The notes beneath the pieces were generated by a model. That model made no database searches and was not told the DNA's origin. It saw only the letters and a program-made list of their open reading frames with translations. The translations under genes were made by a program, and so were the position numbers. 64,000 nucleotides of DNA from an uncultured Acidobacteriota bacterium (GTDB taxonomy: Bacteria; Acidobacteriota; Thermoanaerobaculia; Gp7-AA8), in the NCBI GenBank assembly GCA_963822445.1, contig CAWGHO010000002.1, positions 1,216,001 through 1,280,000 of the forward strand. The letters are read 5' to 3'. How positions within the stretch are numbered: position 1 is the stretch's first letter; every line of letters begins with the position of its first letter. Positions 8,652 to 46,376 of this stretch are shown piece after piece.

Positions 8652-8817
8652 TGTCACGGGAAGACCGACGGGGGGCCTCCGGCGGGCCGGCCACGGGCCG
8701 GCAGGCGCTGGTTGTGCCTTCTGCCGCGCTCGCGGTAGCTAGCTCGAATCGTGTTCACGCGAACATCAGCGCTGCCGGCCGTGCCGGCCCGCCGGAGGCC
8801 CCCCGGTCGGTCCCCGC

Positions 8818-8823
<6 letters not shown>
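8652..8823. repeat. ~170-bp palindromic intergenic repeat (MITE/REP-like), intact copy
   Basis: Long imperfect terminal inverted arms (gaccgacggggggcctccggcgggccggccacgggccggcaggcgctg ... cagcgctgccggccgtgccggcccgccggaggccccccggtcggtc). Its reverse complement aligns along its length with 43461-43602 joined to 45144-45172. Confidence 0.9.
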
Positions 8824-15713: not shown

Positions 15714-15739
15714 ACCTTCACCTCGTGCACCGCCCAAAA

Positions 15740-15765
15740 GGTAGGCCGGAGGCCCACACTACACG
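15740..15765. repeat. GTAG-type REP-like repeat, single copy
   Basis: gtaggccggaggcccacactacac is identical to the unit at 27775-27798. Confidence 0.85.
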
Positions 15766-42487: not shown

Positions 42488-43461
42488 TGCACAGTTCCCC
42501 CATCCCCGAATCCCACCCCTGCTTCGAGTACATCCGCCTCACGGACTCCGTGCCCGCCTCGCAACGCGACTGCATCGACATCGCGCTGCTGGACATGAAT
42601 CACTCCTGGCCGAATGTCGGGCACCACGCGCTGGTGCACGCGGTTCAGAAGACGGCCCAGGAGCTGCGCGAGGAGCTGGGGAAGATCAACGCGAAGGTTC
42701 GCGTGCTGTCGTACGACGTGCGCCGGCAGAACCTGATCCCGGAATCGCCGAACGGCCGCTTTCAGATTTACATCGGCACGGGCGGGCCGGGGCATCTCGA
42801 CCCGCGCCTGAACGACGGCATCAGCGAGACCAGTCAGGGCGTCGACGAAACGGATGCGTGGGAGAAGCCGCTGTTCCGCCTGTTCGACGACATCCTCGCC
42901 TCACGCACCGCGGCGATGCTCGCGATCTGCCACTCGTTCGGACTGGTATGCCGCTGGTCCGAGATCGCCCGCCCTGAGTTACGCCCCGAGAAGAGCTCGG
43001 GGATGCCGCTCAATCGCCTGTCACGCGAAGCACTGAATCATCCCTGGTTCGAGCAGTTCGCGCGCGAGCTTCCCGATCATCAGCATTTCCGCGTGGTGGA
43101 CAATCGTCTGTTCGATCTGATGCTGGAAAGCCCCGGCAAGAGCGCGCCGATCGCGTTCGAAGCCGCGGGCAGCACGGCGTTGACGATGGTGGAACTGGCC
43201 CGCGACCCGGAAGGCACGATGCCCCGGTTTCTCGGCGTGAATCATCATCCGGAGATCATCGACCGCGATCACATCATGCAGGTCCTCGACGCGAAACGCG
43301 CCCAGGGCGAGGTGAGCGATCAGTGGTACGAGGAACGCGCGGTGACGATGCGCGATCTGTTTCACGGGGAGCCGGAACGCCAGAGCCGCCTGACGTCGCA
43401 GTTCACGCTGCTGGCGCCTTTGCGCTTCCATCTCGAACGCGTGATTCGCGAGCGTTCCTAG
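42487..43461 (+). CDS. Class I glutamine amidotransferase-like protein
   Basis: IALLDMN, GTGGPG, AICHSFG (Cys nucleophile), GVNHHPE; TGATG coupling to hicB. Confidence 0.75.
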   Translation: MHSSPIPESHPCFEYIRLTDSVPASQRDCIDIALLDMNHSWPNVGHHALVHAVQKTAQELREELGKINAKVRVLSYDVRRQNLIPESPNGRFQIYIGTGGPGHLDPRLNDGISETSQGVDETDAWEKPLFRLFDDILASRTAAMLAICHSFGLVCRWSEIARPELRPEKSSGMPLNRLSREALNHPWFEQFARELPDHQHFRVVDNRLFDLMLESPGKSAPIAFEAAGSTALTMVELARDPEGTMPRFLGVNHHPEIIDRDHIMQVLDAKRAQGEVSDQWYEERAVTMRDLFHGEPERQSRLTSQFTLLAPLRFHLERVIRERS

Positions 43462-43602
43462 TTGCAACAGGGAACGACCGGGAGGCCTCCGGCGGGCCGG
43501 CACGGCCGGCAGCGCTGATGTTTGCGTAAACGCGATTCGCGCTAGATACCGTGAGCACGGCAGAAGGGACAACCAGCGCTGCCGGCCCGTGGCCGGCCCG
43601 CC
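43461..43602. repeat. Left part of the palindromic repeat interrupted by IS110
   Basis: Aligns with the reverse complement of 8652-8823 up to ...gccggcccgCC. Confidence 0.9.
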
Positions 43603-43611
43603 TATAGCTTG

Positions 43612-43860
43612 TCCGGCCGTCTCTCCGCTTCTCCCTCAGCCCTCAGAGAAGTACCCGTTGGGTGGCAATCGGGAGAATCGGGTTCAGGCGGCGCGATACT
43701 GAGAAGAAGGGTTCGTCCCGCTACGAATTCCGCCCGTGTTCGGATCGACGAATCCCTCCGGACTTTCGAGCGGGACGAAGTGCTTTGGCCCGAAACGCAT
43801 TCTCAGATGCTGTCGGAGCACGACTCGACTATAGGCCTTGCGCGCGGCCAAAGCCAACCC
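43612..43860 (+). ncRNA. Predicted IS110 bridge RNA (5' stem-loop, target-binding loop, donor-binding loop); ends approximate
   Basis: Stem ttcgtcccgct/agcgggacgaa (43712-43779) encloses ccgcccg and cctccgg, which match the target. Stem gctttggcc/ggccaaagc (43782-43854) encloses ctcagatg and ctatagg, which match the IS ends. Confidence 0.85.
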
Positions 43861-43874
43861 GAAGGGAGGGTGTG

Positions 43875-45119
43875 ATGAGCGAGTTCGAGTTTGGGGCGTT
43901 GGTGGGACTGGATTGGGGTGACACATCGCACGAGGTGGCTCTTTGGGACGAGCAGCAGCAGACGTGCACGAACGAGCGCATCGAGCACACGCCTGCGGCT
44001 CTGCGCGCATGGATCGAAGCGCTGCAGGCGCGCTTCGGCGGGGCACCGATCGCCGTGGCCATCGAGCAGTCCCGCGGCGCGGTCTTCGACGCGCTCAGCG
44101 GCTATCCGTTCGTCACGTTGTATCCGATCAACCCACGCAGTGCAGCCCGGTATCGTGAGGCGTTTCATCCGAGCCTTTCGAAAGACGATCCGACCGACGC
44201 GGCGTCCTTGCTCGACCTGCTCCGTAAGCACCGCAACGAGCTGCGCCCGTTCATCGCCGACGACGCTTCTACGCGGCTGCTGCGGCTTCTGACCGAGGAT
44301 CGGCGGGAGCTCGTCGATCAGAGGACGCAACACGTCCAACGCATGACCGATCGGCTCAAGACGTACTACCCGCAGGCGCTCCGGTGGGCCGGCGCGTTGA
44401 TTACGGCCCAGGCCTGTGACTTCCTCGAACGCTGGCCGACGCTCGAGGCCATCCAAAGGGCTCGGCCGTCCGCGATACGGAGGTTCTATGCGGGTCATCA
44501 TCACGCGGCCGCGTGGATCGACCAGAGGCTCGCCGAGATCCGTTCAGAGGTCGCGTTCCACGACGACCAGGTCACCACTGACGCTGCCGTGCTGCTGATC
44601 GGAAGCGAGGTTGCGCAGATCCGGGCCCTCAACACGAGCATCGCCACGTACGACCAGAAGATCTCGGCGGCGTTCGCCGCCCACCAGGACGCGTCGATCT
44701 TCGCGAGCTTCCCTGGCGCCGGCCAACAGCTCGCGCCGCGGCTCGCCGCCGCCTTCGGGACCGATCGCAAGCGCTTCGGCAGCGCCGTCAACGTCGCCAC
44801 CCGAAGCGGCATCGCCCCGGTTCTCCGCCGGAGCGGCAAAACGGCGGTCGTGCACATGCGCTGGGCCTGTCCGAAGTTCCTGCGTCAGACGTTCCATGAG
44901 TACGCCCGCGTGTCGATCGGTCAGTCCGAATGGGCTCGAGCCTTCTACAAGCAGCAACGCGCGCGCGGACACAGCCACCACGAGGCTATCCGCACGCTCG
45001 CTTACCGCTGGATCCGCGTCCTTTACGCCTGCTGGAACAATCGCACCGTCTACGACGAAGCTCTCTATCTGCGGCAGCTCGCCACCCGAGGCTCAACCCT
45101 CGCCACAGCTGCTCCCTGA
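43875..45119 (+). CDS. IS110-family DEDD transposase/recombinase (414 aa)
   Basis: GGAGG RBS; VGLDWG (D), AIEQS (E), SKDDPTDA (D,D); C-terminal FPGAG and SGIAPVLRRSG. Confidence 0.95.
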   Translation: MSEFEFGALVGLDWGDTSHEVALWDEQQQTCTNERIEHTPAALRAWIEALQARFGGAPIAVAIEQSRGAVFDALSGYPFVTLYPINPRSAARYREAFHPSLSKDDPTDAASLLDLLRKHRNELRPFIADDASTRLLRLLTEDRRELVDQRTQHVQRMTDRLKTYYPQALRWAGALITAQACDFLERWPTLEAIQRARPSAIRRFYAGHHHAAAWIDQRLAEIRSEVAFHDDQVTTDAAVLLIGSEVAQIRALNTSIATYDQKISAAFAAHQDASIFASFPGAGQQLAPRLAAAFGTDRKRFGSAVNVATRSGIAPVLRRSGKTAVVHMRWACPKFLRQTFHEYARVSIGQSEWARAFYKQQRARGHSHHEAIRTLAYRWIRVLYACWNNRTVYDEALYLRQLATRGSTLATAAP

Positions 45120-45120
45120 C

Positions 45121-45126
45121 TTGACA
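45121..45126 (+). promoter_or_regulatory. -35 hexamer of the predicted circle-junction promoter
   Basis: TTGACA lies 17 bp before the junction with TATAGC (43603-43608) in the excised circle. Confidence 0.8.
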
Positions 45127-45143
45127 GGAAGGCTCAGATGTCC

Positions 45144-45172
45144 GGAGGCCTCCCGTCGGTCCCTGTCGCAAC
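45144..45172. repeat. Right part of the interrupted palindromic repeat
   Basis: ggaggcctcccgtcggtccctgtcgcaac is the inverted partner of 43461-43490. Confidence 0.9.
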
Positions 45173-45209
45173 CAGGAACAATCAGCAACGACACGCGTCA
45201 ATTGGACAT

Positions 45210-46376
45210 ATGCGCAGATGGACACTGGCACTTCTCCTTCTCGTCGCTTGCGCCTCCGGCACGACCCAGCCGGCGACGACCACCGCTGACATCGTCGGAA
45301 CGCGTGTCCACATCCCTGTCTCCGTCAATGGCGCCGCGCCGGCGACGTTCATCCTCGATACCGGTGCGGTCAAATCGCCCGTCGATCCGAAGTACGCCGA
45401 AACGTTGGGCATCAAGTCGCGCGGGAGCGTGACGGCGCAGGGCGCCGGCGGATCGGTGAAAGTCGGTCTCGCTTCTGACCTGCGGATGTCCTTCGCCGGC
45501 CTCAACGCCAAGGTCGAAAAGAGCCCGATGACGCCTCTTGGTGCGATCAGCCTTCGCATCGGCCAGCCCGTCCATGGCGTTCTCGGCTACGACGTCATGC
45601 GCAAGTACGTCACCGAGATCGACTACGCGAACGAGCGCGTCACCTTCCATCCGCCGTCCTTCAGGCCGCCGGCCGAGGCCGTGCGTCTGCCGATCAGGTT
45701 CGATGGACATCTGCCGCTCGTCGACGCGCGCATCACCCTGCCCGATGGCCGCGAATTACATCCGCGGCTTCTCATCGATACCGGCGCGGGCAACGGGTTG
45801 ATCCTCACACGCGCTTACGTTGCGAAGTCGAAGATCGAGATCGAGCCGACCCTCGAGATCACCGGCGGTCTTGGGGTGGGGGGCGAGACCCGCACCCGCC
45901 TCGGGCGCATCGGCAGCCTTCAACTGGCCGGGTTCACGTTCGACAACCCGCTCGCTTCCATGTCGCGCGACACACGCGGCGTGCTCGCGAGCTCAGACTT
46001 CGATGGTCTGATCGGTGGTCCGATCCTGCGGCGATTCACGCTCTACGTCGACTACCCGCGCAAAGAATTCGCGTTCCTTCCCAATGCCGCGTTCCATACG
46101 CCGATCGAAGCCGACGGCAGCGGACTCGGACTCGCGTCGCGCGACCACAAGTTCGACACGGTGGTGATCCGCGAAGTGCTTTCGAACACGCCTGCGTCCG
46201 AGGCGGATCTGCGCGTGGGAGATGAGGTCGTTGCGGTCGATGGCAAAGCGGCCGTTCCGAAGGACCTCGACGAGATCCGCGAAGCATTCAGGGAGCACGG
46301 TCGGAGCTTCAGCCTCACCATCCGCCGCGACGGATCGCAATCGACGGTGACGCTCGTCACCCGCCGGCTCATCTGA
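45210..46376 (+). CDS. Retropepsin-like aspartyl protease (two domains) with C-terminal PDZ, probable lipoprotein
   Basis: LLLVAC lipobox-like; FILDTGA and LLIDTGA; GVLG and GLIG; PDZ-like TPASEADLRVGDEVVAVDG. Confidence 0.88.
   Translation: MRRWTLALLLLVACASGTTQPATTTADIVGTRVHIPVSVNGAAPATFILDTGAVKSPVDPKYAETLGIKSRGSVTAQGAGGSVKVGLASDLRMSFAGLNAKVEKSPMTPLGAISLRIGQPVHGVLGYDVMRKYVTEIDYANERVTFHPPSFRPPAEAVRLPIRFDGHLPLVDARITLPDGRELHPRLLIDTGAGNGLILTRAYVAKSKIEIEPTLEITGGLGVGGETRTRLGRIGSLQLAGFTFDNPLASMSRDTRGVLASSDFDGLIGGPILRRFTLYVDYPRKEFAFLPNAAFHTPIEADGSGLGLASRDHKFDTVVIREVLSNTPASEADLRVGDEVVAVDGKAAVPKDLDEIREAFREHGRSFSLTIRRDGSQSTVTLVTRRLI

What the first reader, a model, noticed from the sequence alone, without database searches (positions are those of the whole stretch)
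43461..45172. IS110 inserted precisely into a palindromic repeat: reconstructable empty site and CC core
Seen: deleting 43603-45143 rejoins ...gccggcccgCC|ggaggcctccc..., regenerating a full repeat collinear with the intact copy at 8652-8823. Only the dinucleotide CC is shared by both ends. Three unoccupied identical targets remain in the window (8676-8690, 8784-8798, 43486-43500). Known: IS621 targets E. coli REPs through a CT core. Inference: a parallel case of an RNA-guided element using a host repeat family as a safe harbour, with a different core.
Basis: partly seen in the sequence, partly recalled or inferred. Interest (0 to 1): 0.8.

Follow-up and report, generated by a model that had tools for sequence, protein, structure and literature searches.

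The report
RNA-guided IS110 targeting a palindromic repeat
A 1.5-kb IS110-family jumping gene sits at one fixed position in a host palindromic repeat, and its own leader RNA carries short stretches that match that repeat and the element's ends; this is a well-supported but ordinary example of the known bridge-RNA mechanism, using a CC rather than a CT crossover.

Summary
Window 43603-45143 is a 1541-bp IS110-family element that splits one arm of a ~170-bp palindromic repeat. Only CC is shared between the flank and the element's end.

- **Copies:** all 10 full-length copies in the 6.0-Mb genome have the same termini and the same flanks. 40 empty copies of the 14-nt target remain.
- **Guides:** the 272-nt left end has the IS621-type bridge-RNA layout, two stem-loops with internal loops. 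These carry a left target guide CCGCCCG, a right target guide CCUCCGG, a left donor guide CUCAGAUG and a right donor guide CUAUAGG. All four occurred together in 0 of 20,000 shuffles.
- **Covariation:** a metagenomic relative (65% identical protein) with a different target has both target guides switched to match it, on an unchanged scaffold. Across the clade the right target guide matches its own flank exactly in 37 of 49 cases, against 76 of 2222 mismatched pairings.
- **Core:** CC-core relatives carry ...GG right guides and CT-core relatives carry ...AG.

IS110 elements that use REP sequences as targets are already known (IS621, ISPpu9, ISPpu10), so this is a new member of a known kind. Circle, excision and RNA expression could not be tested.

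The parts
43461..43602 (.). Left part of the interrupted ~170-bp palindromic repeat. It comprises the unoccupied arm, the central region and the inner half of the occupied arm.
   Evidence: The rejoined flanks are 151/171 identical to the reverse complement of 8652-8823.
43486..43499 (-). Unoccupied copy of the 14-nt target (LT7-CC-RT5) in the partner arm.
   Evidence: regex on the window. It is also listed as C2 1259491 (-).
43574..43597 (+). Small DNA hairpin in the target arm: GCCGGCC / cgt / GGCCGGC (approximate span). Its 3' arm ends 5 nt before the end of the core.
   Evidence: The same geometry occurs in 16 of 24 distinct left flanks, with compensatory stem variants.
43594..43602 (+). 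Left target (CGGCCCG, 43594-43600) plus the left copy of the CC core (43601-43602).
43603..45143 (+). IS110-family insertion sequence, 1541 bp. The left non-coding end is 272 nt and the right non-coding end is 24 nt.
   Evidence: There are 9 collinear full-length copies at 96.4-100% identity, one further copy with an internal inversion, and 2 right-end fragments.
43603..43608 (+). -10-like hexamer TATAGC. It would lie 17 nt after the -35 in the right end only when the two ends are abutted in a circle.
   Evidence: coordinates. No expression data.
43712..43779 (+). Target-binding stem-loop of the predicted bridge RNA. Outer stem 43712-43727 / 43765-43779; inner hairpin 43738-43753.
   Evidence: The scaffold is invariant in 15 sequences. 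Inner-stem pair 33/44 changes U-A to C-G in 2 sequences.
43730..43737 (+). Left target guide CCGCCCG, followed by a U opposite the first core base (U.G wobble).
   Evidence: It matches 7/7 at 3 of 10 insertion sites and 6/7 at the other 7. It covaries with the target in relatives.
43755..43761 (+). Right target guide CCUCCGG, the reverse complement of CC+GGAGG (7/7).
43762..43763 (+). Handshake guide AC of the target loop. It is complementary to donor positions 6-7 (GT).
   Evidence: sequence. The rule is taken (Hiraizumi 2024 passages).
43780..43855 (+). Donor-binding stem-loop. Outer stem 43780-43792 / 43843-43855.
   Evidence: Pairs 81/143, 82/142 and 84/139 each show a compensatory change, in one sequence (probably L117).
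43802..43811 (+). Left donor guide CUCAGAUG, identical to right-end bases 45133-45140. It is followed by C (mismatch at donor position 7) and U (wobble at core base 1).
43829..43837 (+). Right donor guide CUAUAGG, the reverse complement of CC+TATAG (7/7). It is followed by handshake guide CC, whose first C is complementary to target position 7 (G).
43875..45119 (+). Recombinase gene, 414 aa. RBS AAGGGAGG at 43862-43869. Putative catalytic residues are D13, E64, D105, D108 and S320.
   Evidence: D105/D108 and S320 align to the DxxD and ESG motifs of ISCro4 (9t56). D13 and E64 are assigned by motif only.
45121..45126 (+). -35 hexamer TTGACA in the right end. It is followed by 17 nt to the element's end.
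   Evidence: TTGAC is present in the right-end tails of many relatives.
45135..45143 (+). Left donor (CAGATGT) plus the right copy of the CC core.
45144..45172 (+). Outer half of the occupied repeat arm. The right target GGAGG is at 45144-45148.
8652..8823 (.). Intact copy of the repeat, with empty targets at 8676-8689 (-) and 8785-8798 (+). It folds as one long hairpin.
   Evidence: -80 kcal/mol as DNA, z = -10.4.

Best explanation
Window 43603-45143 is an active or recently active IS110-group insertion sequence that chooses its insertion site with a bridge RNA encoded in its own 272-nt left end.

**The RNA (shown from sequence).** It has two stem-loops, each with an internal loop.
- In the first loop, CCGCCCG(U) has the same sense as the target's left side. 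It can therefore pair with the bottom strand.
- Also in the first loop, CCUCCGG is complementary to CC+GGAGG on the top strand.
- In the second loop, CUCAGAUG and CUAUAGG do the same for the element's abutted right and left ends.

**The target.** It is the foot of a small GC hairpin in each arm of a ~170-bp palindromic doublet repeat.

**Inferred by analogy with IS621.** The element excises as a circle. This joins a -35 (TTGACA, right end) to a -10 (TATAGC, left end) and boosts bridge-RNA and recombinase expression. The DEDD/Ser recombinase tetramer then exchanges strands at the shared CC dinucleotide. Handshake bases (AC after the right target guide, C after the right donor guide) help top-strand exchange.

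**Consequence.** Insertions land in a non-coding repeat rather than in genes. Unlike IS621, the left guides of this clade do not pair with the second core base.
For: **(1) Termini and flanks.** All 10 full-length copies share the same termini and flanks, and 12 of 12 right ends are followed by GGAGGCC. The copies are 96.4-100% identical, and 3 of them, counting the window's own, are identical to each other. 9 of 10 reading frames are intact.

**(2) Family.** PF01548 and PF02371 match. NF033542 scores above its cut-off. D105/D108 and S320 align with catalytic motifs of ISCro4/IS621.

**(3) Guides.** The four guide words are present in the IS621 order: left target guide, hairpin, right target guide, then left donor guide, hairpin, right donor guide. 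In 20,000 dinucleotide shuffles each word appeared in 2403, 1133, 710 and 43 shuffles respectively. Two or more appeared in 234, and all four in 0.

**(4) Structure.** Consensus folding of 15 homologues gives two stem-loops with large internal loops. 5 pairs show compensatory change. Sequence variation is concentrated in the guide segments.

**(5) Covariation with the target.**
- L117 has target ...GAGTAACG-CC / GGCTACC. Its loop reads GAGTAACG... and UAGCCGG, on the same scaffold and with the same ends.
- Two Vicinamibacterales lineages with targets ACCTCCC or ACCTCGC carry the corresponding left guide.
- L107 and L109 (CCGCCCG), and L038, L114 and L115 (CGGCCCG), match their flanks 7/7.
- Clade-wide, 152 loci were examined, 53 had both ends defined, and these gave 49 distinct target-RNA combinations. 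The right target guide was exact in 37 of 49 cognate pairs, against 76 of 2222 non-cognate pairs. The left target matched at 6/7 or better in 27 of those 37.

**(6) Covariation with the core.** Right ends ending in CC go with CTATAGG in 16 of 16 cases. Right ends ending in CT go with CTATAAG in 23 of 25 cases (2 ambiguous).

**(7) Specificity.** 10 of 50 arms with the matching left target are occupied. 0 of 80 sites of a second repeat family are occupied, although they share CC+GGAGGCC and differ only in having AGGYAGG on the left (Fisher p = 3.9e-5).

**(8) Handshake positions.** These fit the published rule: AC against donor GT (2/2), and C against target G7 (1/2).
Against: - **No direct evidence of activity.** No contig showed the circle junction or an empty site at this locus. 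All four runs laid were assembled contigs.
- **No structure database hit.** Rfam 15 gave no bridge-RNA match.
- **Imperfect left target match.** The left target guide matches only 6/7 at 7 of 10 sites. Perfectly matching sites are not significantly preferred: 3 of 11 against 7 of 39, p = 0.67.
- **Left guides and the core.** They do not pair with the second core base, and pair with the first only by U.G wobble. Donor position 7 is mismatched.
- **Poor matches in G020.** Two loci carry both the flank and the loop on one contig, and their left targets match poorly: L039 2/7 and L045 4/7. 6 of 8 distinct G020 left flanks lack the hairpin.
- **Mismatched relatives.** L040, L114 and L115 carry CCCCCGG although their flank is GGAGG, a 1-base mismatch. 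L110 and L203 match their left target only 5/7.
- **Confounded control.** In the second repeat family the site lies inside a long stem. That control therefore cannot separate left-target sequence from DNA structure.
- **Distance from IS621.** The protein is very distant from IS621. Only the Tnp domain aligns, at E = 3e-4.
Confidence: 0.9

Rival explanations
1. Dual-match variant. The RNA guides supply only part of the specificity. The small DNA hairpin that ends 3 nt before the core is a second determinant that the recombinase reads as structure, as proposed for ISPpu10. This could explain why a left-target mismatch is tolerated.
For: 16 of 24 distinct left flanks, from several genomes, have a 5-8 bp stem with a 3-nt loop ending exactly 5 nt before the end of the core. 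The stems vary in a compensatory way: GCGGCC/GGCCGC, GCCGGT/ACCGGC, GCCGAC/GTCGGC and CCGGGGCC/GGCCCCGG. 7 of 10 insertions tolerate a left-target mismatch. The ISPpu10 preprint reports the same architecture, with tests.
Against: The flanks are copies of one repeat family and are not independent. Stem conservation may therefore reflect the repeat's own biology rather than selection by the IS. 6 of 8 G020 flanks lack the hairpin. L117 and the Vicinamibacterales lineage insert into non-repeat-like sequence.
Confidence: 0.35
2. Protein-only site recognition. The recombinase itself recognises the palindromic repeat, and the guide-like matches in the left end are incidental.
For: This was the pre-2024 view of IS110/REP targeting. 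The left-guide match is imperfect at most sites.
Against: All four guide words occurred together in 0 of 20,000 shuffles. Both target guides switch with the target in L117 while protein and scaffold stay homologous. Clade-wide, cognate pairs match in 37 of 49 cases against 76 of 2222 non-cognate pairs. Core and right-guide covariation is 16/16 and 23/25.
Confidence: 0.03
3. The palindromic repeat is part of, or derived from, the mobile element (an IS-borne or IS-derived MITE) rather than an independent host target.
For: The repeat has long inverted arms, like a MITE. No RAYT was found next to it.
Against: 40 empty target arms exist: 14 fully empty doublets, 9 partner arms of occupied doublets and 3 singles. 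They share nothing with the IS beyond CC. The IS ends have no similarity to the arms. The IS uses either arm: 5 insertions in one arm, 4 in the other, and 1 in a minimal hairpin copy.
Confidence: 0.02

Closest known systems
IS621 (E. coli; IS110 group) and its bridge RNA (Durrant 2024, PMC11208160; Hiraizumi 2024, PMC11208158; passages read)
   Same: DEDD+Ser recombinase, long left end and short right end. A left-end RNA with a target loop (left guide in the sense of the top strand, right guide antisense) and a donor loop. A 2-nt core shared by donor and target. Handshake bases 3' of the right guides. A -35 in the right end and a -10 in the left end. A palindromic host repeat as target.
   Different: The core is CC, not CT. 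The right target guide is 7 nt (IS621 wild type: 4). The left guides do not pair with the second core base. The protein has 414 aa against a 328-residue IS621 chain, and only the Tnp domain aligns (E = 3e-4). The host's closest relatives are MAGs labelled Thermoanaerobaculia (Acidobacteriota). Nothing here has been tested experimentally.
ISPpu10 of Pseudomonas putida (bioRxiv 10.64898/2026.03.19.712850; abstract and sections 6-7 read)
   Same: Multi-copy IS110 element whose insertions all lie in one REP-type repeat. The target has a GC-rich 5' stem-loop that overlaps the left target. A U.G wobble is tolerated at the left guide. Convergent target pairs lie less than 200 bp apart.
   Different: The ISPpu10 core is CT. 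Its target repeat is far more numerous. The role of its stem-loop was tested by mutagenesis; here it is only inferred from 16 of 24 flanks.
ISPpu9 (P. putida KT2440; PMC12288879, abstract seen in the listing) and the IS/REP associations of Tobes & Pareja 2006 (PMC1525189, abstract seen in the listing)
   Same: IS110-family copies inserted into REP sequences, at a handful of copies per genome.
   Different: Different host phylum and repeat. I did not read their target or core details.
CT-core and CC-core metagenomic relatives of the same clade (loci L117-L186 and L203-L254)
   Same: Homologous scaffold (…ACGAAU – left target guide – hairpin – right target guide – UUCGAG…; …CUCAGAUG… CUAUA[A/G]G…). 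The right end is …CTCAGATGTC[C/T], and the left end starts TATAG.
   Different: Most use CT: 28 CT against 17 CC among 80 loci, with 25 lacking a recognisable motif. They target other sequences. A Vicinamibacterales lineage with a CC core targets ACCTC[C/G]C-CC-ATGCC.

Membership tests
IS110 family, IS110 group (bridge-RNA-guided insertion sequences) | N-terminal DEDD RuvC-like domain (PF01548) | tested here: met
   E = 1.6e-28, profile positions 1-155 of 155. D105/D108 align to the DxxD of ISCro4. D13 and E64 are assigned by motif only.
IS110 family, IS110 group (bridge-RNA-guided insertion sequences) | C-terminal Tnp domain (PF02371) with the conserved serine | tested here: met
   E = 1.3e-11. 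S320 (RRSGK) aligns with the Ser of the ESG motif of ISCro4 and IS621.
IS110 family, IS110 group (bridge-RNA-guided insertion sequences) | Curated family model scores above its cut-off | tested here: met
   NF033542 'IS110 family RNA-guided transposase', 143.2 bits against a cut-off of 140.
IS110 family, IS110 group (bridge-RNA-guided insertion sequences) | Long left non-coding end, short right end, no long terminal inverted repeats | tested here: met
   The left end is 272 nt (43603-43874) and the right end 24 nt (45120-45143).
IS110 family, IS110 group (bridge-RNA-guided insertion sequences) | Short core shared by donor ends and target, present once on each side of the inserted element | tested here: met
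   CC flanks all 10 copies. The left and right cores agree in 52 of 53 relatives that have both ends.
IS110 family, IS110 group (bridge-RNA-guided insertion sequences) | Left-end RNA with two internal loops that match the target (left target guide / right target guide) and the donor (left donor guide / right donor guide) on opposite strands | tested here: met
   Covariation with the target is shown, and with the core.
IS110 family, IS110 group (bridge-RNA-guided insertion sequences) | Both left and right guides pair with the core dinucleotide | tested here: not met
   The right guides end in GG and pair with CC. The left guides carry U (wobble) at core base 1, and the next base lies in the inner stem. 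CT-core relatives of the clade also lack left-guide pairing with the core (L125 and L131). This is a clade trait, not a defect of this copy.
IS110 family, IS110 group (bridge-RNA-guided insertion sequences) | Handshake guides 3' of the right guides, complementary to the non-cognate position 7 (and 6) | tested here: met
   AC against donor G6-T7 (2/2). CC against target C6-G7 (position 7 only).
IS110 family, IS110 group (bridge-RNA-guided insertion sequences) | Promoter reconstituted across the circle junction | tested here: inconclusive
   TTGACA, then 17 nt to the end of the element, with TATAGC as the first 6 nt of the left end. This is sequence only. The -10 matches the consensus at 4 of 6 positions.
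IS110 family, IS110 group (bridge-RNA-guided insertion sequences) | Circular excised intermediate and scarless excision | not testable with these tools
   only assembled contigs were available, and none joined 45143 to 43603 or 43602 to 45144.
IS110 family, IS110 group (bridge-RNA-guided insertion sequences) | Bridge RNA is expressed and bound by the recombinase | not testable with these tools
   no RNA holder listed.
REP / REPIN-type host repeats | Short GC-rich palindromes, many copies, between genes | tested here: inconclusive
   50 arms carry the strict 14-nt motif: 40 empty and 10 occupied. This is far fewer than classical REPs. Only the two in-window elements were checked against ORFs. 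One ends next to a stop codon. The other overlaps the first bases of a 439-aa ORF (start at 8818).
REP / REPIN-type host repeats | Inverted doublets that form one long hairpin (REPIN architecture) | tested here: met
   14 empty and 9 half-occupied doublets, with cores 107-118 bp apart. The hairpin folds at -80 kcal/mol, z = -10.4.
REP / REPIN-type host repeats | Associated RAYT (Y1 transposase) flanked by the repeats | tested here: not met
   4 weak PF01797 hits (23.6-37.4 bits). No convincing repeat arm lies within about 1.5 kb of any of them.

The most novel reading that the evidence does not exclude
This Acidobacteriota clade is a natural CC-core lineage of bridge recombinases. Its left guides have given up pairing with the core, its right guides are 7 nt long, and a DNA hairpin ending exactly 3 nt before the core acts as a second, structural specificity gate. 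If so, the ISPpu10 'dual-match' logic extends to a distant phylum. It would also offer a recombinase that naturally accepts C at the second core position, which the IS621 core tests I read about (CT changed to AT, GT or TT) did not cover.
Probability: 0.3. Interest if true: 0.5.

Novelty: new member of a known kind. Interest (0 to 1): 0.33.

Why it matters
**What it shows.** The bridge-RNA mechanism, its handshake positions and the habit of parking in host palindromic repeats all hold in soil Acidobacteriota, far from the enterobacterial and Pseudomonas models.

**A natural data set.** The locus supplies 10 insertions, 40 empty targets, 80 non-target look-alike sites, and relatives with switched guides. 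From these, targeting rules can be read without experiments.

**A natural core variant.** CC replaces CT, with matching ...GG right guides. This may interest people widening the target range of bridge recombinases.

**For genome annotation.** The ~270 nt upstream of such transposase genes is a functional RNA gene that Rfam 15 does not recognise.

Tried and rejected
- **Rfam.** The scan of 43000-45600 gave only a chance hit at E = 0.87. The scan of the intact repeat gave only a far-sub-threshold plant miRNA hairpin model (32.9 bits against 268). Neither is informative.
- **Sequencing runs.** No RNA holder was listed. The best DNA holder has a 0.29 share of words.
- **Laying X1-X4.** All are assembled contigs. 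No contig joins across the element (empty site) or from right end to left end (circle). The single 'goes back' joint (45164 to 43468, one contig in X4) links the two palindromic arms and is not the circle junction. X1 has a 287-nt contig across the right junction, so the same insertion is present there. Variant letters in X2-X4 fall in the left guide and inner hairpin, as in the relatives.
- **Orthologous empty site in the genus.** The flanking gene is only 65-79% identical in other species. No usable orthologous intergenic region was found, so this was dropped.
- **RAYT link.** Not found.
- **Alternative register for the left guide.** GCCCGUG also matches the hairpin loop 11 nt upstream. I rejected this because relatives with other stems lose that match but keep the core-adjacent one.
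- **Idea that both left guides co-vary at core base 1.** Ours has U/U and G020 has C/C. Rejected, because L036 has C/A, L037 has C/U and L040 has U/A.
- **Preference for perfectly matched left targets.** Not significant: 3 of 11 against 7 of 39.
- **Literature on a CC core.** A search for 'CC core' with IS110 and bridge RNA found 0 occurrences of 'CC core' in the 15 listed of 51 papers. I therefore do not claim that CC cores are unreported.
- **Not used.** Structure prediction, complex prediction and the large protein searches would not have changed the reading.

Full report
**What is there.**
- The window (G000:C2:1216001-1280000) holds a 1541-bp element at 43603-45143.
- Its single long ORF (43875-45119, 414 aa) matches DEDD_Tnp_IS110 over the whole profile (1.6e-28) and Transposase_20 (1.3e-11).
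- It passes the curated NCBIfam model 'IS110 family RNA-guided transposase' at 143.2 bits against a cut-off of 140.
- Against solved structures only the C-terminal domain aligns: ISCro4 9t56 at 1.8e-5 and IS621 8wt6 at 3e-4. There, S320 falls on the serine of the ESG motif, and D105/D108 fall on the DxxD motif.
- The element has a 272-nt left non-coding end and a 24-nt right one. This is the IS110-group layout described in Durrant 2024 (passages).

**Checking the observation.**
- The left flank ends ...GGCCGGCCCG-CC. The element begins TATAGC and ends ...CAGATGT-CC. The right flank begins GGAGGCC.
- The rejoined flanks form a full copy of the repeat seen intact at 8652-8823. They match its reverse complement (151/171) better than the same strand (138/171). 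The two copies therefore lie in opposite orientation, a small correction to 'collinear'.
- The three unoccupied 15-mers are as stated.
- The genome (6.0 Mb, 3 contigs, 64.5% GC) has 9 collinear full-length copies at 96.4-100% identity. A tenth copy has bases ~412-579 inverted. There are also two right-end fragments.
- All 10 full-length copies share the termini and the flanks. 7 have ...CGGCCCG-CC on the left and 3 have ...CCGCCCG-CC. All 12 right ends are followed by GGAGGCC.

**The target repeat.**
- The strict 14-nt empty target C[C/G]GCCCG-CC-GGAGG occurs 40 times. The 19-nt word occurs 19 times against 0.003 expected.
- The arms come as inverted doublets with cores 107-118 bp apart. There are 14 fully empty doublets, 9 doublets with one arm occupied, and 3 single arms. 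None has both arms occupied.
- The intact copy folds as one long hairpin: -80 kcal/mol as DNA, z = -10.4. Rfam gives nothing meaningful for it.
- Each arm contains its own small hairpin (for example GCCGGCC-cgt-GGCCGGC) that ends 3 nt before the CC.
- The architecture is REPIN-like. However, I found no RAYT next to it, and the copy number is modest.
- Insertions use both arms: 5 in one, 4 in the other, and 1 in a minimal hairpin-only copy.

**The bridge RNA.**
- I followed the published IS621 rules. The left target guide has the sense of the top strand and pairs with the bottom strand. The right target guide pairs with the top strand. The donor loop works the same way, and the core is included.
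- The left end contains, in order:
  - CCGCCCG at 43730-43736
  - an inner hairpin at 43738-43753
  - CCUCCGG at 43755-43761, the reverse complement of CC+GGAGG
  - CUCAGAUG at 43802-43809, identical to the right-end bases just before ...TCC
  - a second inner hairpin
  - CUAUAGG at 43829-43835, the reverse complement of CC+TATAG
- In 20,000 dinucleotide-preserving shuffles of the left end, the four words appeared in 2403, 1133, 710 and 43 shuffles. Two or more appeared in 234, and all four in none.
- An alignment of 15 homologous left ends is 93% identical on average, with the variation concentrated in the guide segments.
- Its consensus fold is two stem-loops with large internal loops. Compensatory changes occur at 5 pairs.
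- The two bases after the right target guide (AC) are complementary to donor positions 6-7 (GT). The base after the right donor guide (C) is complementary to target position 7 (G). These are the handshake-guide positions described by Hiraizumi 2024.
- TTGACA at 45121-45126 lies 17 nt from the element's end, and the left end starts with TATAGC. A sigma-70-type promoter would therefore form only when the ends are joined, as reported for IS621 and ISPpu10. This step is inferred.
- All 10 copies have identical loops.

**Covariation, the strongest evidence.**
- Relatives occur in 9 of 35 genomes of the genus, counting this one.
- In five other species of the genus (G009, G020, G023, G045, G047) every recognisable left end starts TATAGC after CC.
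- 28 of 28 true right ends in three of them (G020, G023, G046) are followed by GGAGGC. Five chance hits of the short regex that lacked the right-end context were ignored.
- Left guides track their flanks:
  - CGGCCCG with CGGCCCG (L038, L114, L115)
  - CCGCCCG with CCGCCCG (L107, L109)
  - UGGCCCG with CGGCCCG through a U.G pair (L036, L037, L111, L113)
- The decisive case is L117 (65% protein identity). Its flanks are ...GAGTAACG-CC and GGCTACC.... Its loop reads GAGTAACG... and UAGCCGG, while scaffold, donor guides, ends and CC core are unchanged.
- A Vicinamibacterales lineage (52% identity, CC core) targets ACCTCCC- or ACCTCGC-CC-ATGCC, with the left guide following the C/G difference.
- Systematically, 152 loci were examined and 53 had both ends recognisable, giving 49 distinct target-RNA combinations. 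The exact 7-nt right target guide was present in 37 of 49 cognate cases against 76 of 2222 non-cognate pairings. In those 37, the left target matched 7/7 in 14, 6/7 in 13 and 4-5/7 in 10.

**The CC core.**
- Among the 80 metagenomic relatives, a simple right-end motif gave CC in 17, CT in 28, other endings in 10 and no motif in 25.
- CC always went with CTATAGG (16 of 16; one locus lacked the upstream region). CT went with CTATAAG (23 of 25; 2 ambiguous; 3 lacked the motif).
- CC is thus a derived state inside a mostly CT-core clade, accompanied by an A-to-G change in the core-pairing base of the right guides.
- The left guides of this clade do not pair with the second core base, and this holds in CT-core members too. 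This differs from IS621, where all four guides include the core.

**Specificity inside the genome.**
- Of 1284 CCGGAGG sites, 12 are the element's own right ends, 40 are empty targets, and 80 belong to a second palindromic family (AGGYAGG-CC-GGAGGCC; one copy at window 15739-15752).
- That family shares core plus right target and is never occupied: 0 of 80 against 10 of 50, p = 3.9e-5.
- The left side therefore matters. However, sequence and DNA structure are confounded in this control.

**What speaks against a simple picture.**
- 7 of 10 insertions have one mismatch at left-target position 2, or a 1-nt bulge, since the two target variants differ by one G. Perfectly matched sites are not significantly preferred (p = 0.67).
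- In G020, two contigs carry flank and loop together and match only 2/7 and 4/7. 6 of 8 distinct flanks there lack the hairpin.
- These could be insertions guided in trans by another copy's RNA, or right-half-only events of the kind named in the title of a 2026 preprint on half-match recombination (listing only). I could not test either.
- L040, L114 and L115 have a 1-base mismatch in the right target guide.

**Comparison with what is known.**
- IS110-family insertion into REP sequences is long known: Choi 2003 and Tobes & Pareja 2006 are cited, and ISPpu9 appears as an abstract.
- The RNA mechanism was shown for IS621 and for seekRNA elements.
- ISPpu10 was shown to need both base pairing and a 5' stem-loop in its REP target. 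Here 16 of 24 distinct flanks have that geometry, with compensatory stem variants.
- This element is therefore a new member of a known kind, in a phylum not represented among the models I read about. The closest genome relatives are MAGs labelled Thermoanaerobaculia.
- I found no text mention of a 'CC core', but supplements are closed.

**Not done or not possible.**
- No raw reads or RNA runs were available, so circle, excision and expression remain untested.
- Whether the repeats are intergenic was checked only for the two in-window copies.

Noticed in passing
window 15739-15752, and 80 sites genome-wide: A second palindromic repeat family: ...GGCCTCCGGCCTACC, about 16 nt, then AGGTAGGCCGGAGGCC.... 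It shares CC+GGAGGCC with the IS target but has AGGYAGG on the left. None of its 80 sites carries the IS.
   Followed up: partly
G000:C1:940357-941431 (outside the window): Two right-end fragments of the IS (bases 847-1541 and 1161-1541) are joined head-to-head in inverted orientation, and each is followed by GGAGGCCTCCCGGTG. This looks like the remnant of a repeat doublet that had an IS in both arms and then lost the middle of the resulting 1.5-kb palindrome.
   Followed up: partly
G000:C3:469301-470841 (outside the window): One IS copy has bases ~412-579 inverted in place. This puts 3 TGA stops in the recombinase frame, so the copy is dead.
   Followed up: no
G000:C1:330246, C3:254433, C3:745535 (outside the window): A second, unrelated IS110-family element of about 1.47 kb, present in 3 copies at more than 99.8% identity. 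It has TTGACA near its right end and different flanks; two of the three follow ...GACGCCGGC. A fourth weak PF01548 hit lies at C1:96099.
   Followed up: partly
window 45138-45209: The ATG inside the IS right end (…GATGTCC) opens a frame that runs in phase into the downstream aspartyl-protease/PDZ gene (ORF 45138-46376). The lipoprotein-like start MRRWTLALLLLVAC at 45210 is the more likely native start.
   Followed up: no
loci L206-L218 (Vicinamibacterales MAG contigs): A 52%-identical CC-core relative is present in at least 8 copies in one MAG. It always sits between ...ACCTC[C/G]C-CC and ATGCCGCC(T/C)TCGCCGA.... This target looks like a conserved, possibly coding, multi-copy sequence rather than a palindromic repeat.
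   Followed up: partly
window 43442-43512: The repeat arm alone recruits very high summed contig depth in one sediment metagenome (3417 in X4). Arm-like sequences therefore seem widespread there, although these are short matches at 90% or more from unknown organisms.
   Followed up: no
G020 contigs (L039, L058, L062, L074-L076): In one sister species the related IS sits at sites with no hairpin and a poor left-target match (2-5 of 7), while the right flank is still GGAGGCC. These may be relaxed or half-site insertions.
   Followed up: partly
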